Source of the DNA: an uncultured Woeseia sp.
GTDB taxonomy: Bacteria > Pseudomonadota > Gammaproteobacteria > Steroidobacterales > UBA11654
Length of the DNA stretch: 59,897 bases
Assembly (NCBI GenBank): GCA_964454905.1
Contig: CAYVTR010000008.1
Span: 1 to 59,897 of the forward strand
Direction: 5' to 3'
Below the pieces are notes generated by a model that worked only from the letters and a program-made list of their open reading frames with translations, was not told the DNA's origin and made no database searches. Below, piece by piece: positions 20,114 to 27,755 of this stretch (its first letter is position 1; every line of letters begins with the position of its first letter). The position numbers were made by a program, and so were the translations under genes.

Positions 20114-20677
20114 ATGAACAGACTGATTATAGGAATTTCCGGTGCCAGTGGAATCATTTATGGTATCCGTGTTTTGCAAATTCTAAAAGGGATTGATGAC
20201 ATTGAAACCCATTTAGTTGTAACAAAAGGAGGTAAGTTAAATATCTCTCTGGAGAGCGACCTTGATCTTAAAGAGATTGAGTCTATGGCGGATGTTGTCC
20301 ATAACGATCGTAATTTAGGCGCAAGTATTGCTAGTGGTTCATTTGAGACCAGAGGAATGATTATAGCTCCTTGTTCCATGAAGACTCTTTCGGGAATTGT
20401 AAATTCATACGCAACCAATTTAATCGTCAGAGCTGCTGATGTAATTCTTAAGGAGACAAGACAATTAATTATAGTGCCCAGAGAAACCCCACTTCATCTT
20501 GGCCACACAGAGTTATTGTACAAAGCTTCATTGATGGGAGCTGATATTGTTCCTCCTAATCCCGCATTCTATAACCACCCAAAAACTATTGATGATATTG
20601 TTAATCATACTGTGGGACGTGTTCTGGATCTCGCTGGTGTTGATAATGATGTGGTTAAGCGGTGGCAAGGTGTTTAA
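20114..20677 (+). CDS. ubiX: Flavin prenyltransferase UbiX
   Basis: GISGASG, IASGS, APCSMKTL, RAADV, PRETP, PAFYNHP. Confidence 0.95.
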   Translation: MNRLIIGISGASGIIYGIRVLQILKGIDDIETHLVVTKGGKLNISLESDLDLKEIESMADVVHNDRNLGASIASGSFETRGMIIAPCSMKTLSGIVNSYATNLIVRAADVILKETRQLIIVPRETPLHLGHTELLYKASLMGADIVPPNPAFYNHPKTIDDIVNHTVGRVLDLAGVDNDVVKRWQGV

Positions 20678-20683
20678 ACGCCA

Positions 20684-21199
20684 ATGGTTAGTGAGTCCAT
20701 TGCAGAGCTAAAAGAACGTTTACAATTGTTCTTAAATGAGCACAATACTCTTACGATAGCCACCAGAAACGCACAATCAATTTGGGCAGCTACTGTGTTT
20801 TATATAGCTGATGCTGAGATGAATCTTTATTTCTTGTCCTCAGACAGAGCAAGGCATATCCAAGATATCGACAGTCATAATGAAGTTGCAGTCACTATTT
20901 ATCAAGATGTGAGTGATTGGCAATCAATCCAAGGGGTTCAAGCTACCGGTCATGTAAGTCATGTGGGAGAGGATAATAAATCTAGTGTCATAAATCAGTA
21001 CACCTCTAAATATGTTTTTCTAAAGGAGTTATTGAATAATCCTAAAGATGAGCAAGAAGAAAGGATTGCTCAGCAATTCAAAACCATCAGTCTTTTTAAA
21101 TTGGAGCCTTTTTACTATCGGATAATAGATAACTCAATTGAATTTGGTTACAAACAAGAAATTACTTTGATTGACGGTTCTTGGATTAAAAAAGATTAG
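20684..21199 (+). CDS. Pyridoxamine 5'-phosphate oxidase-like (split-barrel flavin-binding) protein
   Basis: LTIAT..WAATVFY, YFLSS..RH, VAVTI, W..IQGVQ..G, IDNS..FG.K pattern. Confidence 0.8.
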   Translation: MVSESIAELKERLQLFLNEHNTLTIATRNAQSIWAATVFYIADAEMNLYFLSSDRARHIQDIDSHNEVAVTIYQDVSDWQSIQGVQATGHVSHVGEDNKSSVINQYTSKYVFLKELLNNPKDEQEERIAQQFKTISLFKLEPFYYRIIDNSIEFGYKQEITLIDGSWIKKD

Positions 21200-21984
21200 T
21201 CTTCAGAGCTTGAGTATTTAGGTAGGGATCCTAAATGAGCTCCACTATCTACTATCAGAACTTCACCTGTTATGAGTTTTGCCCCCTCAAGAAACCACAC
21301 TAAGGTTTCAGCAACGTCTTCAGCGGTGGCAACTTGCTTTAAGGGTAATTCATTTTCAGCTTGTTCAATTAGTGCTGAATAGGCTTCATCACCCATGCCC
21401 CCTTTCAACCATCTTGTTTGAATAGGGCCCGGGGCTACAGCGTTAATTCTAATTTCAGGACCTAGAACATGAGCCAATGATTTGGTCATTATATTTAATG
21501 CAGCTTTAGAAGTGACATAGGCAATTGATGAACCAACACCATTGATACCAGCTAATGATGAGTCATTTACAATGGCACCCCCACCTTGTTGTTTCATATA
21601 TGGAACAACAGCTTTTATCATCTGATAGGGCCCAACAACATTAACTGAATAAATATCTAGGAAATCCTCACCAGATAAACCGTCAAGGTTCTCAAAAGGG
21701 TTAAATTTTGTTTTACCCGCATTATTGACAAGGTAATCAATTTTCCCCCATTTTTTTATTGTTGCTTCAACCATCGATTTACATTCATCATCATTAGAAA
21801 CATCAGCCTTAAACACGATGCACTCAACATTGTGTTGTTCAACTAATTGAGCCGTTGCCATAGCTTCTTCTTTTGATCGAGTGTAGTTAATAACAACATT
21901 ACAACCCTTCTCTGCCAGCAAGACTGCGGTAGCCGCCCCCACACCTGTGGCGGAGCCTGTAACTATTGCAACTTTTTCTTTCAT
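21196..21984 (-). CDS. Short-chain dehydrogenase/reductase
   Basis: TGSATGVG, NNAG, YVTSK, RINAVAPG. Confidence 0.93.
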   Translation of the reverse strand: MKEKVAIVTGSATGVGAATAVLLAEKGCNVVINYTRSKEEAMATAQLVEQHNVECIVFKADVSNDDECKSMVEATIKKWGKIDYLVNNAGKTKFNPFENLDGLSGEDFLDIYSVNVVGPYQMIKAVVPYMKQQGGGAIVNDSSLAGINGVGSSIAYVTSKAALNIMTKSLAHVLGPEIRINAVAPGPIQTRWLKGGMGDEAYSALIEQAENELPLKQVATAEDVAETLVWFLEGAKLITGEVLIVDSGAHLGSLPKYSSSED

Positions 21985-22127
21985 TATAATCTCTAGGTAT
22001 TAGTTGGTTATTGTATCGGTTAAACTATATTAAATCTTTGATTTAATTTGAAGTTGCTTAAGAGCGTGATGTTCAAAATGTTAAATCTAGAATATAATTT
22101 TTAATCATATTTACAGGAGATAATGAA

Positions 22128-23624
22128 GTGGATTTTAATGACATGAGAGGGTACTTAGAATTACTCAAAGATAAGGGCTTATTATTAGATTTAGATATTG
22201 AGCTTAATGTTGCAAGAGAAACCACTGAGCTTCAGGCTTTAATGAGGCATCTGCATAATCATGATGGACCGGCATTAATGTTAAATAATCTCGATGGGTA
22301 TAACACTAAAGATATTCCAGTATTATTTAACCCCTACGGTACTAGACAGAGAACTTCAATGATCTTAGGTACAGATGATCCTCTAGAAGCCAAGTTAAAA
22401 CATGCAGAAGTCTTAACTGATCAATCCAGATGGATAAAACCCAAAGTTATTGATGGCGCTAAAGCTCCTTGCAAAGAGAACAAGATAAATAAAGGGGAAA
22501 TCAATATAGGTAAACAACTTCCTCATGTTTGGTTTGGTAAAGAGGGCCCATCTTATATCACCAATGCTGTTGTGATTACAAAAGATCCCGAAACAGGTAT
22601 CCCAAATACAGGCTGTTATCGTTTGACCCAACTTTGGAACGCAACGCACCCAAATGGTGAGGTGTATTCAGATGAGGAACAGAGACAATGTTTATCTATT
22701 TTTGCTTTCTGGAACCCTCCAGGGAATCATATTGGGCTGCATTGGGCTAAAGCACAGGAAATAAACAAACCATTGGAGATAGCTATCGCCTGTGTCGTTG
22801 ACCCTGTCATACAAATTGCTGGAGCCACTAGCATACCTTTTGGATTAGATGAAATGGATTTTGCAGGTGGCTTAAGAGGTGAAGCTGTGGAAGTTGTTAA
22901 TTGTGAAACAATAGATCTACAAGTTCCTGCGAGTTCTGAGCTAGTGATAGAGGGACGATTCTTGCCTAACAGAGACGTGACGATTGGACCTCACTCTAAT
23001 CCAATAGGCTACTATGATGACGCTCAATTATTTCCATTGATTGAGGTTGATTGTATAACCCACCGAAATGAGCCTATTTGGTATGCGACCATGGAGATGG
23101 AACCTCCTTTTGACCATAACTATATGGCTTGTTTACCAATCGAAGGTGAATTACTTAGTGATTTGCAATCAAAAATACCTGAAGTCATCGATGTGGTGGT
23201 TACACCTAATTTGAGTTATTTTGTGCAACTTTCAGTTGATGGTGCACAAAAGCCACACCCTGAGTTTGGTAAATTTGTTTTGCATGCAGTTTGGGGTGCT
23301 AGCGGACGTTGGGGTCGAACTGCAAAGGTTGTTGTTGTTGTTGGACCTGATGTAAATCCTTATGATCTGTCAGAAGTTGAATGGGCTATACAGACAAGAG
23401 TCCAACCTTTTTCTGACACAATTATCAATAAATCTGGACAGGCTTTTCTCATGGATCCTTCTGCACCTAAAGACCCAGGTCATGGAATTGCTCTTCAGTC
23501 CGAACAAATAGGTATTGATGCAACAATAAAGGTTTTTGAGCGTTTTCACAGTTATCCAGAATACAGTAATGCTAACCCTGAGGATGTAGAAGCTATTGCT
23601 AAGAAGCTAAAAGATATCTTATAG
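22128..23624 (+). CDS. UbiD family prFMN-dependent protein with atypical active site
   Basis: ITKDPETG..NTGCYR, HIG, LDEMDFAG, LQVPASSELVIEG, DV.PYD..EVEWAI.TR, GIDAT; AGGAG SD. Confidence 0.92.
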   Translation: MDFNDMRGYLELLKDKGLLLDLDIELNVARETTELQALMRHLHNHDGPALMLNNLDGYNTKDIPVLFNPYGTRQRTSMILGTDDPLEAKLKHAEVLTDQSRWIKPKVIDGAKAPCKENKINKGEINIGKQLPHVWFGKEGPSYITNAVVITKDPETGIPNTGCYRLTQLWNATHPNGEVYSDEEQRQCLSIFAFWNPPGNHIGLHWAKAQEINKPLEIAIACVVDPVIQIAGATSIPFGLDEMDFAGGLRGEAVEVVNCETIDLQVPASSELVIEGRFLPNRDVTIGPHSNPIGYYDDAQLFPLIEVDCITHRNEPIWYATMEMEPPFDHNYMACLPIEGELLSDLQSKIPEVIDVVVTPNLSYFVQLSVDGAQKPHPEFGKFVLHAVWGASGRWGRTAKVVVVVGPDVNPYDLSEVEWAIQTRVQPFSDTIINKSGQAFLMDPSAPKDPGHGIALQSEQIGIDATIKVFERFHSYPEYSNANPEDVEAIAKKLKDIL

Positions 23625-23633
23625 CAAATAAAA

Positions 23634-23657
23634 AGGTCCACATAAAAATGTGGACCT
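23634..23657. terminator. Intrinsic terminator hairpin between convergent genes
   Basis: Perfect 10-bp stem AGGTCCACAT-aaaa-ATGTGGACCT with an A-run on the left (U-tract for the minus strand). Confidence 0.8.
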
Positions 23658-23679: not shown

Positions 23680-24306
23680 TTACATAAAGAAGCCCATATG
23701 TCCAGCTCCAACCATACACATAAGCATAGGGATTGAGAGCATGGTATTAGTTCTTGAGGCCAAAAAAGCAATTCTCGCACCTTTTGCTTTTTCCTCTGCA
23801 GTAGCTTCAACAATTCCCAAAACTTTTTTCTGATTAGGCCAAATAAGAATCCAGACATTGAAAAGCATAATCGTGCCCATCCAAGCACCAATTCCTATAA
23901 TCATGTTATATTCTGGATTAACAGGAGTTCCAACTAATCCCAACTCAAAAGCAGATTTTATACCTTCCATTCCACCACCTTTAGCATAAAGTATAGTGGC
24001 ACCTGATAACCAAGTTAGAAGTGCAGCCCATCTGAACCACAGTAATGCTCTAGGAGCAACATATTTAGTTATCGCTGCTGGTCCAGGACCACTTTCATCA
24101 GCATTTGCTTCTCCGATAGAGGGGACTTGAATGAAATTAAAATAATAAAGCAAACCAATCCAAGCGACTCCAGCAGCTACATGCACCCATGTGGAAATTG
24201 AGACCGTTGCGCCTACACCCGTAGATACATTTATTGAAAGGACTATAATTATAGAAATTACTAGTCCACTTATGATTGTTCCAGCAATCTTATCTAATGG
24301 ATTCAT
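23680..24306 (-). CDS. Urate oxidase N-terminal (PuuD/COG3748)-like membrane protein, no cytochrome c domain
   Basis: WVHVAAGVAWIGLLYYFNF, WFRWAAL.TWLSG, GTIMLFNVW..IWPNQKK, SRTNTMLSIPML. Confidence 0.85.
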   Translation of the reverse strand: MNPLDKIAGTIISGLVISIIIVLSINVSTGVGATVSISTWVHVAAGVAWIGLLYYFNFIQVPSIGEANADESGPGPAAITKYVAPRALLWFRWAALLTWLSGATILYAKGGGMEGIKSAFELGLVGTPVNPEYNMIIGIGAWMGTIMLFNVWILIWPNQKKVLGIVEATAEEKAKGARIAFLASRTNTMLSIPMLMCMVGAGHMGFFM

Positions 24307-24452: not shown

Positions 24453-24773
24453 ATGGATGTGAAAGATCGCATTAAGAACCAATTGGGTGAGTTTCCCCTT
24501 TTGCTTTATATGAAAGGAACACCAGATTTTCCTCAGTGTGGTTTTTCAGCAAAAGTTTGTGGAATCCTTAAAGCGTCAAATAAACGCTTTGCATTTGTTA
24601 ATATCCTTGAGGATCATGAGATCCGAGAGGGGCTGAAAACTTATTCAGATTGGCCCACTTTTCCTCAACTTTATGTTAACGGGGAACTAGTAGGCGGGTC
24701 TGACATTGTGGAGCAAATGTATAGTAATGGCGAATTGGATAACGTATTAGATAATGTGGAATACCCTGAATAA
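24453..24773 (+). CDS. grxD: Monothiol glutaredoxin Grx4
   Basis: MKGTPDFPQCGFS, WPTFPQLY, GGSD. Confidence 0.96.
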   Translation: MDVKDRIKNQLGEFPLLLYMKGTPDFPQCGFSAKVCGILKASNKRFAFVNILEDHEIREGLKTYSDWPTFPQLYVNGELVGGSDIVEQMYSNGELDNVLDNVEYPE

Positions 24774-24796: not shown

Positions 24797-26098
24797 ATTT
24801 CTAATAAAAAAACAGTTTTACTTCCTGATCTTGGAGATTTTAGCGATGTTGAAGTCGTTGAATTAATTGTAAAAGAGGGGGATGTGGTTAAAGTCGATGA
24901 CCCAATCCTTACCTTAGAGACAGATAAGGCAGCAATGGATGTTCCCAGCCCTTATCCTGGTAAAGTGATATCAATATATGCTAATAAGGGCGATAAGATT
25001 AATCAAGGCGATGATCTTTGTTTAATTGACGTTGATACTTCTCTTGCCGATGATCAAGACGATGAACCAGAAGCGGTAATGACTGAAGTCTCTGATGAGA
25101 TTACAAAAACTGAAACTACATTACCCACAGAAACGATTTCTAAGGAACATGAAACATCTAATTTTATTTCAAAGTCATTTTCAGGACTGCATGCCAGCCC
25201 TTCGGTTAGAAAGCTTGCTCGTGAATTAGGAGTTGACCTTACAGAAATTAAAGGGACTGGTTTAAAAGATCGTATCCAACCTGAAGATTTGAAGTCATAT
25301 GTTAAGGGAATCATAACAGGTAAAAAAACAGATGGGATTATGGGATTGCCAGAATTACCTATAATTGATTACGCCAATTTTGGTCCTATTGAAACTGTTC
25401 AGTTAAGTCGAATAAAGAAAATATCTGGCCCAAGACTTCAAGCCAGTTGGATTAATATACCGCATGTTACTCAGCATGATGAGGTTGATATTAATGAGTT
25501 AGAGCAAATAAGAATTGATTTAAAGGATGAGGCTAAAGCACAAGGTTTTTCATTAACTATTCTTGCTTTCATCATCAAAGGTGTTTGTAAGGTGTTACTC
25601 GACTTCCCTGATTTTAATTCCTCTTTGGATGCAAAGGGAGAGAACCTCATTCATAAAAAATACATCAATATAGGATTTGCAGCTAATACAGACAACGGGT
25701 TAATGGTGCCTGTAATAAAAAAAGCAGAACAAAAAGATCTATTAACAATTGCAAAAGAGCTTTCTGAATTAAGCAAGCTAGCTCGTGATGGTAAGATTCA
25801 ACTCAGTGATATGCAAGGAGGAACCTTTACAGTATCAAGTTTGGGTGGCTTTGGTGGCACTGGATTCACTCCGATCATTAATGCACCTGAGGTAGCAATC
25901 CTAGGGGTAGCAAGATCAAAGATTAAACCTGTTTTTGTTAAAGGCCAGTTTCTTCCAAGGTTGATACTTCCTATTTCACTTTCTTATGATCATCGGGTAA
26001 TTGATGGAGTAGGAGGGATTCAATTCACTACGCAACTTAAAAACACCTTAGAGGACCCTTCCAGTTTCCTTGACATTTCTTCAGATGAAAATGGCTGA
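24797..26098 (+). CDS. aceF: Pyruvate dehydrogenase E2 (dihydrolipoamide acetyltransferase), single lipoyl domain; start inferred at ATT 24797
   Basis: LPDLGDF...ETDKAAM lipoyl domain, HASPSVRKLAREL, IPHVTQHDE, FTPIINAPE, SYDHRVIDG. Confidence 0.92.
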   Translation: MSNKKTVLLPDLGDFSDVEVVELIVKEGDVVKVDDPILTLETDKAAMDVPSPYPGKVISIYANKGDKINQGDDLCLIDVDTSLADDQDDEPEAVMTEVSDEITKTETTLPTETISKEHETSNFISKSFSGLHASPSVRKLARELGVDLTEIKGTGLKDRIQPEDLKSYVKGIITGKKTDGIMGLPELPIIDYANFGPIETVQLSRIKKISGPRLQASWINIPHVTQHDEVDINELEQIRIDLKDEAKAQGFSLTILAFIIKGVCKVLLDFPDFNSSLDAKGENLIHKKYINIGFAANTDNGLMVPVIKKAEQKDLLTIAKELSELSKLARDGKIQLSDMQGGTFTVSSLGGFGGTGFTPIINAPEVAILGVARSKIKPVFVKGQFLPRLILPISLSYDHRVIDGVGGIQFTTQLKNTLEDPSSFLDISSDENG

Positions 26099-27755
26099 AA
26101 TTAGAATTCCAGATTTAGGTGACTTTGATGCAGTTGTTGTTGTCGAAGTCCATGTTGTGGATGGTCAAGAAGTTAAAGAGAATGATCCTATTATTACCTT
26201 AGAGACTGAAAAAGCTGCAATGGATGTCACTGCAATGCATAAAGGGTCCATTCTATCTGTTAGTGTTAAGTCTGGGGATAGGGTTTCTACAGGGGACGTT
26301 ATTGCACAACTCTCTGATGAATCTTCTCTACAAGCAGAAGCAACTGACCAACCTGACAAAACTTATGATCTAGCGGTTATTGGGGCTGGACCGGGTGGAT
26401 ACACAGCTGCTTTTAGAGCTGCGGATCTTGGCTTAAGGGTTGCTTTAATTGATAAAAATAATGTTTTAGGTGGGGTATGTTTGAATGTTGGCTGCATTCC
26501 TTCAAAGGCTTTTTTACACGCTGCAAAAGTTATTGATGATTCTAAAGACGCCTCATTAGTAGGTATAGATTTCAAATCACCTGTAATTAGTTTAGAAAAA
26601 ATGAAAAACTGGAAGAATGGAGTCATAGATGGGTTAACCCAAGGACTTAAGGGGTTAGCACAACAAAGGAAGGTAGAGTGTTTCCAAGGCCGAGCTGAAT
26701 TCACGTCTGACCAAACAATAGAGATTTCTTTAGAGAATGATCGACAAGACATACAATTTTCAAGTGCCATTATAGCTGTTGGATCTGAGCCCGCATCATT
26801 AGATTTTTTACCAGATGATCCAAGAGTAATTGATTCAACTGGAGCATTAGAGCCTAAAGAGATACCAAAGACCATTCTAATTATAGGCGGAGGTATCATT
26901 GGTTTAGAGATGGCTACCATTTATTCTGCACTTGGTTCAAAGGTAACCATAGTCGAATTACTTGATCAGTTAATGCCTGGCACCGATCAAGATCTAGTAA
27001 AACCCCTAGAGCGACACTTAGAGAAGAAATGTGAAGCTATTTATAAATCAAGCAAGGTGATCAAAGCAGAAGCAAATAAGAATGGTATCTCAGTTGTCCT
27101 TGAAATTGATGATGAGCAACAACAACAAATGTTTGACCAAGTATTAGTTGCTATAGGTAGAAAAGCAAACGGCAATAAGATGAAAGCTAAAGATATAGGT
27201 GTGGATGTCAATCAGAATGGAACCATAGATGTTGATGGACAAATGCGAACCAACTGTAGAAACATTTTTGCGATCGGTGATGTTGTGGGAGACCCTATGT
27301 TGGCACACAAAGCAAGTTATGAAGGTAAAATTGCAGCAGAAGTGATTGCAGGTCAAAAATCAGTTATGGACATCAGATGTATTCCATCCGTTGCTTATAC
27401 AGACCCAGAAATAGCATGGGTAGGATTAACAGAAAATGAATGCAATAATCAGAATATCGATTATAAAAAAGGGATGTTCCCATGGTCAGCAAGTGGGCGA
27501 GCATTAACTATCGGAAGAAATGAAGGGCTAACAAAATTACTCTTCGACCCCAAAACTAAAAGAGTTATTGGTGGAGGAATTGTGGGAACTAACGCAGGGG
27601 ATTTAATCTCAGAAATAGCTTTAGCGATAGAAATGGATTGCGATGTTAGTGATATTGCCCTGACAATACATCCACATCCAACCTTATCTGAAACAGTAGC
27701 TTTGGCAGCAGAAGTATTTGAAGGCACGGTAACAGACCTTTATCTGAAAAATTAA
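26091..27755 (+). CDS. lpdA: Dihydrolipoamide dehydrogenase with N-terminal lipoyl domain (start ATG 26091)
   Basis: IPDLGDF..ETEKAAM, GAGPGGY, GGVCLNVGCIPSK, HPHPTLSE. Confidence 0.96.
   Translation: MAEIRIPDLGDFDAVVVVEVHVVDGQEVKENDPIITLETEKAAMDVTAMHKGSILSVSVKSGDRVSTGDVIAQLSDESSLQAEATDQPDKTYDLAVIGAGPGGYTAAFRAADLGLRVALIDKNNVLGGVCLNVGCIPSKAFLHAAKVIDDSKDASLVGIDFKSPVISLEKMKNWKNGVIDGLTQGLKGLAQQRKVECFQGRAEFTSDQTIEISLENDRQDIQFSSAIIAVGSEPASLDFLPDDPRVIDSTGALEPKEIPKTILIIGGGIIGLEMATIYSALGSKVTIVELLDQLMPGTDQDLVKPLERHLEKKCEAIYKSSKVIKAEANKNGISVVLEIDDEQQQQMFDQVLVAIGRKANGNKMKAKDIGVDVNQNGTIDVDGQMRTNCRNIFAIGDVVGDPMLAHKASYEGKIAAEVIAGQKSVMDIRCIPSVAYTDPEIAWVGLTENECNNQNIDYKKGMFPWSASGRALTIGRNEGLTKLLFDPKTKRVIGGGIVGTNAGDLISEIALAIEMDCDVSDIALTIHPHPTLSETVALAAEVFEGTVTDLYLKN

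What the first reader, a model, noticed from the sequence alone, without database searches (positions are those of the whole stretch)
22128..23624. UbiD-family protein that has lost both catalytic glutamates but keeps its prFMN/metal ligands
Seen: the motif at 22983-23015 reads IGPHSNPIGYY. Known: in UbiD/Fdc1 decarboxylases this is EGPFGExxGYY, which supplies the Glu-Arg-Glu acid network (A. niger Fdc1 E277/E282 with R173). Here the first Glu is Ile, the catalytic Glu is Asn, and a new His sits at the Phe position. The Arg (GCYR) and the apparent Mn/phosphate ligands (Asn in PNTG, His in NHIG, Glu in LDEM) remain, and an intact ubiX lies 1.5 kb away. Inference: a prFMN enzyme with a different proton donor (His) or non-decarboxylase chemistry, rather than a decayed gene.
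Basis: partly seen in the sequence, partly recalled or inferred. Interest (0 to 1): 0.85.

Follow-up and report, generated by a model that had tools for sequence, protein, structure and literature searches.

The report
Glutamate-less UbiD enzyme paired with reductase
This gene belongs to a conserved branch of the UbiD decarboxylase family that has swapped the family's two catalytic glutamates for a fixed His-Ser-Asn motif and always travels with one particular dehydrogenase, so it probably does prenylated-flavin chemistry in a way not yet described.

Summary
ORF 22128-23624 (+) is an intact 498-aa UbiD-family protein, and residues 286-296 read IGPHSNPIGYY where relatives have EGPFGExxGYY.

It is not private decay. 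In 121 homologues (58-100% identity) His289 is kept in 120, Ser290 in 121 and Asn291 in 119. The Arg and the metal/phosphate ligands are also kept: N160 121, R165 121, H201 113, E242 121.

The clade is monophyletic. It sits inside a larger UbiD branch that has lost the canonical motif. I found it only in uncultured Gammaproteobacteria, in 234 species genomes.

New here: a dedicated short-chain dehydrogenase (21196-21984, -) occurs in exactly the same 32 of 121 sampled genomes as the clade. It is usually transcribed divergently from it. UbiX followed by a split-barrel flavoprotein-like gene usually lies just upstream.

Genomes with the clade almost never carry a canonical UbiD (2 of 32, against 48 of 89 without the clade).

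The substrate is unknown. My best reading is a prFMN enzyme with His in the acid-base role, working with the dehydrogenase. A role as a ubiquinone decarboxylase replacement remains a live rival. I judge it a new variant of a known kind. Seven literature searches found no description of it.

The parts
22128..23624 (+). UbiD-family protein of the 'HSN clade', 498 aa, GTG start
   Evidence: Pfam UbiD_N, UbiD and UbiD_C all above cut-off. TIGR00148 scores 271.7 against a cut-off of 244.85. AlphaFold model pLDDT 81.2, pTM 0.85. Foldseek top matches are HmfF, VdcC and E. coli UbiD at TM about 0.72.
22983..23015 (+). Motif IGPHSNPIGYY, replacing E-G-P-F-G-E-x-x-G-Y-Y. I286 = first Glu position, H289, S290, N291 = catalytic Glu position
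   Evidence: Conservation in 121 clade members: I 115, H 120, S 121, N 119.
22605..22622 (+). N160...R165 (NTGCYR): metal/phosphate-ligand Asn and the family's conserved Arg
   Evidence: Aligned to RNVSIHR of HmfF. N 121/121 and R 121/121.
22629..22721 (+). Clade-specific stretch, residues 168-198: about 19 residues more than HmfF has between the Arg and the ligand His. It holds invariant H174, Y180 and W195-N-P-P
   Evidence: HmfF spans 15 residues and the query 34 between the two aligned blocks. H174 119/121, Y180 121/121, W195 121/121.
22728..22730 (+). H201 (NHIG), putative metal-ligand His
   Evidence: Aligned to the His of HLWHF in HmfF. H in 113, Q in 6 and D in 2 of 121.
22851..22853 (+). 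E242 (LDEM), putative metal-ligand Glu
   Evidence: Aligned to VDEL of HmfF. 121/121.
21196..21984 (-). Dedicated short-chain dehydrogenase/reductase (262 aa), transcribed divergently from the UbiD-like gene
   Evidence: Pfam adh_short_C2, 194 bits. Orthologue (62-100% id, E <= 1e-106) found in exactly the 32 of 121 genomes that hold the clade and in 0 of 89 others. Divergent and within 450 nt upstream in 55 of 68 genome loci and 16 of 29 metagenome loci. TGxxxGxG, S142/S143, Y156 and K160 are invariant in 16 orthologues.
21985..22127 (.). 143-bp divergent intergenic region between the SDR and the UbiD-like gene. AGGAG lies at 22115-22119
   Evidence: The consensus promoter scan gave nothing above chance.
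20114..20677 (+). UbiX flavin prenyltransferase, the only one found in this genome
   Evidence: NF004685 259.9 bits against a cut-off of 188. Single Flavoprotein-family hit in G000. Lies upstream of the clade gene in 41 of 55 genome loci with enough flank.
20684..21199 (+). Split-barrel PNPOx/YhbP-like protein (171 aa) immediately after ubiX
   Evidence: PF01243 32.6 bits. Model pLDDT 94.8. Foldseek: HugZ/ChuZ-type heme-binding proteins and PNPOx-type FMN proteins. UbiX is followed by this gene within 250 nt in 40 of 55 genome loci. Found in 20 of 32 clade genomes and 1 of 89 others.
23634..23657 (.). Palindromic hairpin between the convergent UbiD-like gene and the downstream membrane-protein gene. 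Terminator-like
   Evidence: 10-bp stem, 5 GC pairs, T run. A consensus match only.

Best explanation
The ORF encodes a functional member of a distinct UbiD-family subclade, here called the HSN clade.

It keeps the UbiD fold, the conserved Arg and the Asn/His/Glu residues that in solved UbiDs hold the metal-bound phosphate of prenylated FMN. Its cofactor would come from the UbiX encoded 1.45 kb upstream, possibly helped by the split-barrel protein that follows ubiX.

The E(D)-R-E acid network is dismantled. The first acid is Ile/Val and the catalytic acid is Asn. An invariant His-Ser-Asn triad and a clade-specific insertion remodel the active site.

The enzyme works as one unit with a dedicated NAD(P)-dependent short-chain dehydrogenase. 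Together they carry out a redox-coupled (de)carboxylation, or a related prFMN-adduct reaction, on a carboxylic acid not yet identified. His289 does the proton transfer that Glu does elsewhere.

Shown: the gene is intact. The motif and ligands are conserved clade-wide. The clade is monophyletic. It co-occurs strictly with the SDR. It is linked to UbiX.

Inferred: prFMN binding, His as acid/base, the type of reaction and the substrate.
For: Intact three-domain UbiD.

Motif and ligand conservation in 121 sequences down to 58% identity: H289 120, S290 121, N291 119, N160 121, R165 121, E242 121, H201 113.

Tree: the HSN clade has support 0.998. It lies inside a 14-tip branch (0.966) in which all tips have His at 289 and none has Glu at 291. 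That branch lies inside a 20-tip non-canonical branch (0.97). The first outgroup reads EGPFGE.

SDR orthologue in 32 of 32 clade genomes and 0 of 89 others, across 6 families and 11 genera, including genomes where the two genes are far apart.

Synteny: SDR divergent and adjacent in 55 of 68 and 16 of 29 loci. UbiX then the split-barrel gene upstream in 40 of 55 and 11 of 20 loci.

In G128, which has two ubiX genes and a canonical ubiD, one ubiX sits in the HSN cluster. In G011 the only ubiX lies in the HSN cluster.

Fdc1 E282Q is inactive, and an acidic residue is needed at positions 277 and 282 (PMC5818171 passages). A conserved clade lacking both must therefore use other residues or other chemistry.

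Contigs from RNA libraries of 4 marine runs in 4 studies cover the gene at 95% likeness or more. This does not prove transcription.
Against: There is no biochemical datum for any member, and every carrier is an uncultured genome.

His289 sits in a part of the model with lower confidence: pLDDT block 281-290 is 81 and block 291-300 is 61. No coordinates were available, so its distance to the cofactor is unknown.

H201 is not invariant (8 of 121 differ).

Every clade genome I checked also has at least one other UbiD-family gene (5 of 5). UbiX linkage alone therefore does not prove that this protein uses prFMN.

The split-barrel gene was not found in 12 of 32 clade genomes with my single-sequence query.

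A subclade reading IGWHSNVAGYYD had no SDR orthologue within its loci (for example L117, L120 and L130).

The SDR's nearest homologues are generic: uncharacterised 5iz4, FabG-type enzymes, and a Rhizobium CoA-transferase/SDR/MaoC operon at 48% identity.
Confidence: 0.55

Rival explanations
1. The HSN enzyme, with its SDR, is the ubiquinone-pathway decarboxylase of these lineages. It would be a paralogous replacement of canonical UbiD acting on 3-polyprenyl-4-hydroxybenzoate or a neighbouring intermediate. This is a special case of the best explanation in which the substrate is named.
For: The genome makes ubiquinone: UbiA scores 309.5 bits over its cut-off and UbiB 518.5 bits over its cut-off.

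None of its four UbiD paralogues reaches the UbiD equivalog NF008175 (cut-off 788). The window protein scores highest at 157.8, against 121.1 and 107.8 for the C1 and C2 paralogues; the C6 paralogue was not scanned.

The genome's only ubiX is next to the gene.

Canonical UbiD occurs in 2 of 32 clade genomes against 48 of 89 others in the same order sample. It occurs in 3 of 50 further clade genomes, a set that overlaps the first.

The two other full-length paralogues of this genome sit among TonB receptors, a BBE-type oxidase and a Rieske/VanA-type oxygenase. That looks catabolic.
Against: No step of known ubiquinone synthesis needs an SDR, yet the SDR is obligatory here.

Counted by family the exclusion is weak. 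Four of the six families with the clade lack canonical UbiD, and about 11 of 24 families lack it anyway. Several families have no UbiD-family gene at all.

UbiB is present, and an aerobic UbiB-dependent decarboxylation has been reported (bioRxiv 10.64898/2026.03.05.709815, abstract and section 7 read).

Three genomes hold both enzymes.

The clade is no closer to canonical UbiD than to HmfF or VdcC.

No ubi genes appeared among the conserved neighbour clusters.
Confidence: 0.2
2. The protein is a prFMN enzyme that no longer decarboxylates. Without a carbon-protonating acid, it would use reversible prFMN adduct formation for another outcome, such as isomerisation of an unsaturated acid or a decarboxylative elimination that needs no proton. 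The SDR would supply or remove the substrate.
For: Both acids of the network are gone while the cofactor ligands stay.

In Fdc1 the Glu is needed for protonation and product release, not for cofactor maturation (PMC5818171).

Sister branches show still other motifs (DGPHGN, NWGHSH, DGPHA) in other gene contexts: acyl-CoA ligases in one, aldehyde:ferredoxin oxidoreductase, O-methyltransferase and nitrilase in another. This suggests a radiation of functions.
Against: No non-(de)carboxylase UbiD is described in the papers I read.

His is a competent general acid/base, so plain decarboxylation needs no special pleading.

There is no direct evidence of any kind.
Confidence: 0.15
3. The protein is catalytically dead. 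It would serve as a prFMN-binding or scaffolding subunit, for the SDR or for another UbiD paralogue.
For: The residues shown to be essential in Fdc1 are lost.

Every clade genome checked has other UbiD paralogues with the canonical motif or other variants.
Against: The replaced positions are themselves nearly invariant (H 120, S 121, N 119 of 121), as are many clade-specific residues around them. That is the pattern of an active site, not of relaxed selection.

The only paralogue family I compared across genomes, the EGPFGEM type, was seen in 4 of the 6 genomes looked at, and no paralogue was tested for co-occurrence with the clade.
Confidence: 0.09
4. The gene is a decaying pseudogene or a private mutant.
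For: None beyond the missing glutamates.
Against: The frame is open and full length with a good ribosome-binding site.

The motif is shared by 119 of 121 homologues and by 234 species genomes' relatives.

Laid contigs of 4 runs show no insertions or deletions (table 4).
Confidence: 0.01

Closest known systems
HmfF, 2,5-furandicarboxylate decarboxylase of Pelotomaculum thermopropionicum (PDB 6h6x/6h6v)
   Same: Best sequence match (E 4.5e-45) and best fold match (TMq 0.73, 27% identity). Same three-domain UbiD fold. The Asn, Arg, His and Glu ligand positions align.
   Different: HmfF reads EGPFGE, where this protein reads IGPHSN. HmfF lacks the roughly 19-residue insertion between the Arg and the ligand His. 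No SDR partner is known for it (recalled).
E. coli UbiD, 4-hydroxy-3-polyprenylbenzoate decarboxylase (PDB 2idb, 5m1c)
   Same: UbiD fold and the GYY motif (EGPYGDHTGYY). Depends on UbiX. Matches at E 7.8e-41 and TMq 0.71.
   Different: The equivalog model NF008175 scores 157.8 against a cut-off of 788. The acid pair E...D is present in UbiD and absent here. The two are nearly mutually exclusive across genomes.
A. niger Fdc1 (PDB 4za4), the mechanistic model of the family
   Same: Same fold (TMq 0.72, 23% identity). The equivalent of Arg173 is kept.
   Different: In Fdc1 an acidic residue is required at both 277 and 282, and E282Q is inactive (PMC5818171). Here those positions are Ile and Asn.
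prFMN accessory proteins PhdC, YclD and LpdD
   Same: Like PhdC, the gene after ubiX encodes a small split-barrel flavin-fold protein tied to a UbiD/UbiX cluster (PMC13040415, abstract and discussion read).
   Different: No sequence match to any PDB chain at E <= 0.09. Foldseek's listed matches are HugZ/ChuZ heme-binding and PNPOx proteins, and PhdC is not among them. A maturase role is only an idea.

Membership tests
UbiD family (Pfam PF01977 with PF20695 and PF20696; NCBIfam TIGR00148) | Three-domain UbiD architecture and a family-model score above cut-off | tested here: met
   UbiD 162.1 bits, UbiD_C 71.8 and UbiD_N 39.3, all above cut-offs. TIGR00148 271.7 against 244.85.
UbiD family | UbiD fold | tested here: met
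   Model pTM 0.85. The top 50 Foldseek PDB hits are all UbiD enzymes, at TM 0.70-0.73.
UbiD family | Asn/His/Glu ligands of the metal that holds the prFMN phosphate | tested here: met
   Met by sequence alignment only: N160, H201 and E242 align to HmfF. Kept in 121, 113 and 121 of 121 clade members.
UbiD family | Conserved active-site Arg (Fdc1 R173) | tested here: met
   R165 aligned. 121/121.
UbiD family | E(D)-R-E ionic network, described as conserved in the family (PMC8988006) and critical for activity (PMC11350588) | tested here: not met
   I286 and N291 stand at the two acid positions. Across the clade these read I/V/T/L and N/G/S, with 0 of 121 acidic.
UbiD family | Binds prFMN made by a UbiX | not testable with these tools
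   A UbiX gene is adjacent. Binding itself needs protein work.
Canonical ubiquinone UbiD (NCBIfam NF008175 equivalog) | Score at or above the curated cut-off of 788 bits | tested here: not met
   157.8 bits.
VdcC, hydroxyarylic acid decarboxylase subunit C (NF041204) | Score at or above 650 bits, with VdcB and VdcD partners | tested here: not met
   233.4 bits. No VdcD-like small gene was noted in the cluster, though I did not search for one specifically.
Classical SDR (the partner protein) | TGxxxGxG cofactor motif and the Ser-Tyr-Lys catalytic residues | tested here: met
   T9-G10...G14-x-G16, S142/S143, Y156 and K160 are invariant in 16 orthologues. adh_short_C2 194 bits.

The most novel reading that the evidence does not exclude
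The HSN UbiD, its dedicated dehydrogenase, UbiX and the split-barrel protein form a previously unrecognised four-gene prFMN system. In it the cofactor works without the family's Glu-Arg-Glu network.

The system would do one of two things:
- new prFMN chemistry, with a His-based or acid-free mechanism coupled to NAD(P); or
- the 'missing' UbiD-type decarboxylation of ubiquinone synthesis in Gammaproteobacteria that lack canonical UbiD.
Probability: 0.25. Interest if true: 0.85.

Novelty: new variant of a known kind. Interest (0 to 1): 0.62.

Why it matters
Papers on UbiD enzymes treat the E(D)-R-E network as conserved across the family and essential (PMC8988006, PMC5818171, PMC11350588). A large, strongly conserved clade lacks both acids. 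It still keeps the cofactor ligands, a linked UbiX and an obligate dehydrogenase partner. That makes it a natural experiment on what prenylated flavin can do without that network.

It gives the field a concrete set of genes to express. It may extend the reaction scope of an enzyme family used for biocatalytic (de)carboxylation.

The near-exclusion with canonical UbiD also makes one question directly testable: how do ubiquinone-making bacteria without UbiD remove the ring carboxylate?

The carriers are widespread uncultured marine and sediment Gammaproteobacteria, including a streamlined 1.5-Mb genome that keeps the whole module.

Tried and rejected
**Complex prediction.** A prediction of the UbiD-like protein with the SDR (alignments A1 and A2) returned 'no answer'. 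It is no evidence either way.

**RNA-library contigs.** In runs X3, X4 and X10 the bin 21911-22057, the divergent intergenic region, had no cover, while both flanking genes were covered. Run X2 bridges it. A part without cover proves nothing, and DNA may be present in such libraries.

**Split-barrel protein as a PhdC-like prFMN maturase.** It had no PDB sequence match, and PhdC is not among the listed Foldseek matches. I keep this only as an idea.

**Substrate clues from neighbours.**
- In 36 of 64 more distant genome loci, several genes lie within 6 kb downstream. These are an aconitase-family large subunit and, in 20 of the 64, its small subunit, followed in part of these loci by a 295-aa PEP-mutase/isocitrate-lyase-family protein, a PEP mutase-nucleotidyltransferase fusion and a ThDP decarboxylase.
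- The window's own genome has no orthologues of these, only about 31% hits. They are therefore not part of the core module and may reflect shared gene order.

**Sister clades.** The DGPHGN and NWGHSH clades have no SDR orthologue nearby.

**Plasmids of cultured bacteria.** None holds a relative above 30% identity.

**Fused forms.** None of 873 aa or more was found. This is weak evidence.

**ESM Atlas.** It returned only 'UbiD family' clusters.

**Promoter scan.** Matches were at or below chance.

**Earlier-findings tool.** It was closed.

**Supplementary files.** They were closed. Table S1 of the UbiB preprint and Fig. S2 of PMC8988006 might show how such sequences were classed or aligned.
Full report
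**1. The observation.**

Window 22128-23624 (+) is a single 498-aa open frame. It starts at GTG, 8 nt after an AGGAG.

It carries all three UbiD Pfam domains above their cut-offs. It passes the NCBIfam UbiD-family model TIGR00148 (271.7 bits, cut-off 244.85). It falls far short of every function-specific model: VdcC 233/650, menaquinone decarboxylase 191/496, canonical UbiD NF008175 158/788.

Bases 22983-23015 translate to IGPHSNPIGYY. HMMER aligns this to EGPFGEYPRYY of HmfF and EGPYGDHTGYY of E. coli UbiD. The same alignment places N160 and R165, H201 and E242 on the HmfF residues of the motifs RNVSIHR, HLWHF and VDEL.

**2. Private decay or a clade?**

A search of 5.8 billion proteins gave 819 hits. 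The best 120 share 58-92% identity with the query.

The table gives counts at the key positions in a MAFFT alignment of the 121 sequences.

| Position | Main residue (count of 121) | Others |
|---|---|---|
| 286 | I 115 | V 3, T 2, L 1 |
| 289 | H 120 | |
| 290 | S 121 | |
| 291 | N 119 | |
| 160 | N 121 | |
| 165 | R 121 | |
| 201 | H 113 | Q 6, D 2 |
| 242 | E 121 | |

No sequence has an acidic residue at 286 or 291.

The clade also has invariant residues of its own:
- H174, Y180 and W195-N-P-P. These lie in a stretch about 19 residues longer than the corresponding part of HmfF, between the Arg and the ligand His.
- E323-M-x-P-P-F-D-H-N.

An exhaustive HMMER search of 1.84 billion representatives found 3954 relatives. 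There is a score gap after the clade: 657 bits, then 381-441 bits for four full-length sister representatives, then 243 bits or less. Among 129 representatives of at least 400 aa, only the nearest branches deviate from EGPFGE/D.

I built a FastTree of 139 sequences. I left out representatives under 430 aa or over 600 aa.
- The clade is monophyletic (support 0.998).
- It sits inside a 14-tip branch (0.966) in which every tip has His at 289 and none has Glu at 291. The motifs there are HSN, NWGHSH, DGPHA-, DGPHGN and DYKHAN.
- That branch sits inside a 20-tip non-canonical branch (0.97).
- The first outgroup reads EGPFGE.
- One deeper tip reads EHEHVE. It has His together with both acids, which suggests His came first and the acids were lost afterwards. 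This is inference from one tree.

**3. Who has it.**

A scan of one genome per species (185,579 species) found 234 stretches encoding relatives. All 80 kept are uncultured Gammaproteobacteria, labelled Woeseia/Woeseiaceae, Chromatiales/Chromatiaceae, Foliamicus, Spiribacter and similar.

A metagenome scan added 41 more loci of the clade. Plasmids of cultured bacteria hold nothing above 30% identity.

The window's own genome is 1.49 Mb, about 36% G+C, and 95% complete. It has four UbiD-family genes.
- Two of the others read EGPFGEM. They lie among TonB-dependent receptors, a BBE-type FAD oxidase and a Rieske/VanA-type oxygenase.
- The fourth is partly masked.

**4. The surroundings.**

I ran tblastn with the window's neighbours against the loci.

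| Feature | Genome loci | Metagenome loci |
|---|---|---|
| SDR orthologue (>= 60% id) in the locus | 61 of 68 (with >= 1300 nt upstream) | 21 of 29 |
| SDR divergent, within 450 nt upstream | 55 of 68 | 16 of 29 |
| UbiX upstream | 41 of 55 (with >= 4500 nt upstream) | 11 of 20 |
| UbiX followed within 250 nt by the split-barrel gene | 40 of 55 | 11 of 20 |

The SDR is the orthologue of the gene at 21196-21984.

I then searched the same sample of 121 genomes of the window's order, 50 genera in 24 families.
- The clade (profile A1, E <= 1e-100) is in 32 genomes.
- The SDR orthologue (all hits E <= 1e-106, 62-100% identity) is in exactly those 32 and in none of the other 89.
- This holds even in genomes where the two genes lie hundreds of kilobases apart, for example G066 and G100.
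- The split-barrel protein is in 20 of the 32 and, weakly, in 1 of the 89.

These counts include the unpublished genome G016, which has a canonical UbiD and neither the clade nor the SDR. Without it the denominators 89 and 121 become 88 and 120.

The SDR is very conserved: mean column identity is 82% in 16 orthologues. It keeps the cofactor and catalytic motifs.

Its nearest solved relative is an uncharacterised SDR (5iz4, 220 bits). FabG-type enzymes follow at about 155 bits. Its nearest plasmid homologue (48% identity) sits between a CoA transferase and a MaoC dehydratase in Rhizobium.

**5. Relation to ubiquinone synthesis.**

The genome encodes UbiA and UbiB above their cut-offs and no U32 peptidase (UbiU/V type). 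So it should make ubiquinone aerobically.

No paralogue scanned (three of the four) approaches the canonical UbiD model. The only ubiX is the one beside the clade gene.

In the order sample, a canonical-type UbiD (at least 420 bits; the next best match is 185) is in 50 of 121 genomes. That is 2 of the 32 with the clade and 48 of the 89 without. In 50 further clade genomes, reached through their loci, it is in 3. This set overlaps the first: two of the three are G011 and G002 again.

This is a striking exclusion at the genome level. By family it is weak, for two reasons. Four of the six clade-bearing families lack canonical UbiD. About 11 of 24 families lack it anyway, and several have no UbiD-family gene at all.

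An aerobic UbiB-dependent decarboxylation has been reported. About 28% of ubiquinone-producing Pseudomonadota are said to lack UbiD/UbiX (bioRxiv 10.64898/2026.03.05.709815, abstract and section 7 read).

All five clade genomes I checked have at least one other UbiD-family gene. In G128, which has a canonical UbiD and two ubiX genes, one ubiX lies in the clade's cluster. In G011 the single ubiX lies there.

**6. Structure.**

The AlphaFold2 model (alignment of 18) has pLDDT 81.2 and pTM 0.85. Confidence is lower at 291-300 and 427-475. Foldseek ranks HmfF, VdcC, E. coli UbiD, HudA, AroY and Fdc1 at TM 0.70-0.73.

No coordinates are returned. I therefore could not test whether another acid reaches the Glu282 position in space.

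The split-barrel protein models at pLDDT 94.8. It resembles HugZ/ChuZ-type heme-binding proteins and PNPOx-type FMN proteins.

**7. Expression.**

Contigs assembled from RNA libraries of four marine runs, from four studies, cover ubiX, the SDR and the UbiD-like gene at 95% likeness or more, with no indels. Such libraries can hold DNA, so this is only a hint.

**8. What it most likely is.**

In Fdc1 an acidic residue is required at both 277 and 282. E282Q is inactive yet still matures the cofactor, while Arg173 affects maturation (PMC5818171, passages). Papers describe the E(D)-R-E network as conserved in the family (PMC8988006, passages) and critical for activity (PMC11350588, passage).

This clade has lost both acids. 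It has fixed His-Ser-Asn in their place, kept the Arg and the cofactor ligands, stays linked to UbiX, and never occurs without one particular SDR.

It is most simply read as an active prFMN enzyme with a rebuilt acid-base apparatus, working in a two-enzyme redox-coupled step. I commit to His289 as the proton-transfer residue in a (de)carboxylation. The general picture has about 0.55 confidence. The specific His role has lower confidence, perhaps 0.35.

The rivals are:
- a ubiquinone-pathway replacement (0.2, a special case);
- non-decarboxylase prFMN chemistry (0.15);
- a non-catalytic subunit (0.09);
- decay (0.01).

**9. Novelty.**

Seven full-text searches found no paper on a UbiD clade without the acid pair or coupled to an SDR. 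I read parts of seven papers. The library misses most subscription journals, and supplements were closed, so a description elsewhere cannot be excluded.

I class it as a new variant of a known kind.

Noticed in passing
window 20684-21199 (+): A 171-aa split-barrel (PNPOx/YhbP-like) gene follows ubiX by 6 nt. It is co-distributed with the HSN clade: 20 of 32 clade genomes, 1 of 89 others. It could be a cofactor-handling partner analogous in role to PhdC, but no sequence or listed fold match to PhdC was found.
   Followed up: partly
L014 7514-9133 and L015 9130-10275; L033 10101-12625; L048 9340-10605; L081 11551-12186: In sister genera and many distant loci, phosphonate-type genes follow the clade gene. 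These are a PEP mutase fused to a nucleotidyltransferase and a ThDP decarboxylase. In distant loci there are also aconitase-family large and small subunits and a 295-aa PEP-mutase/isocitrate-lyase-family protein. The window's genome lacks orthologues of all of these.
   Followed up: partly
G000 C1 (L001 1006-2487, -), C2 (L002 1135-2586, +), C6 (L004 1075-2388, -): A 1.49-Mb genome carries four UbiD-family genes. Two read EGPFGEM and sit with TonB-dependent receptors, a BBE-type oxidase and a Rieske/VanA-type oxygenase. The fourth reads TLGEFGAQYG and contains a masked stretch.
   Followed up: partly
L029, L033, L050 and others: In some distant loci a Flavodoxin_2/FMN-reductase-type gene lies just before ubiX (8 loci), and a nitronate-monooxygenase/FabK-type gene follows the SDR on its strand (9 loci). 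These are possible further members of the module.
   Followed up: no
L117, L118, L120, L127, L128, L130, L132 (metagenome loci): A subclade reading IGWHSNVAGYYD (58-61% identity to the window protein) shows no SDR orthologue within the fetched flanks. I did not check whether it has one elsewhere.
   Followed up: no
window 24884-26098 (+) and 26070-27755 (+): The 2-oxoacid dehydrogenase E2 ORF matches only positions 27-73 of the lipoyl-domain profile at its N-terminus. The following E3 carries its own N-terminal lipoyl domain. The E2 start may be miscalled or the domain truncated.
   Followed up: no
window 23680-24306 (-) and 24453-24773 (+): A 208-aa membrane protein matching the N-terminal domain of urate oxidase (PF06181) and a glutaredoxin follow the clade gene in this genus. 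They do so again in two distant loci (L080, and L084 for the membrane protein only).
   Followed up: no
L092 7525-10734; L133 2969-8632: Sister clades of the non-canonical UbiD branch sit in other contexts. The DGPHGN clade lies beside two acyl-CoA (AMP-binding) ligases and a DUF1326 gene. The NWGHSH clade lies beside an aldehyde:ferredoxin oxidoreductase, an O-methyltransferase and a nitrilase-family gene.
   Followed up: partly
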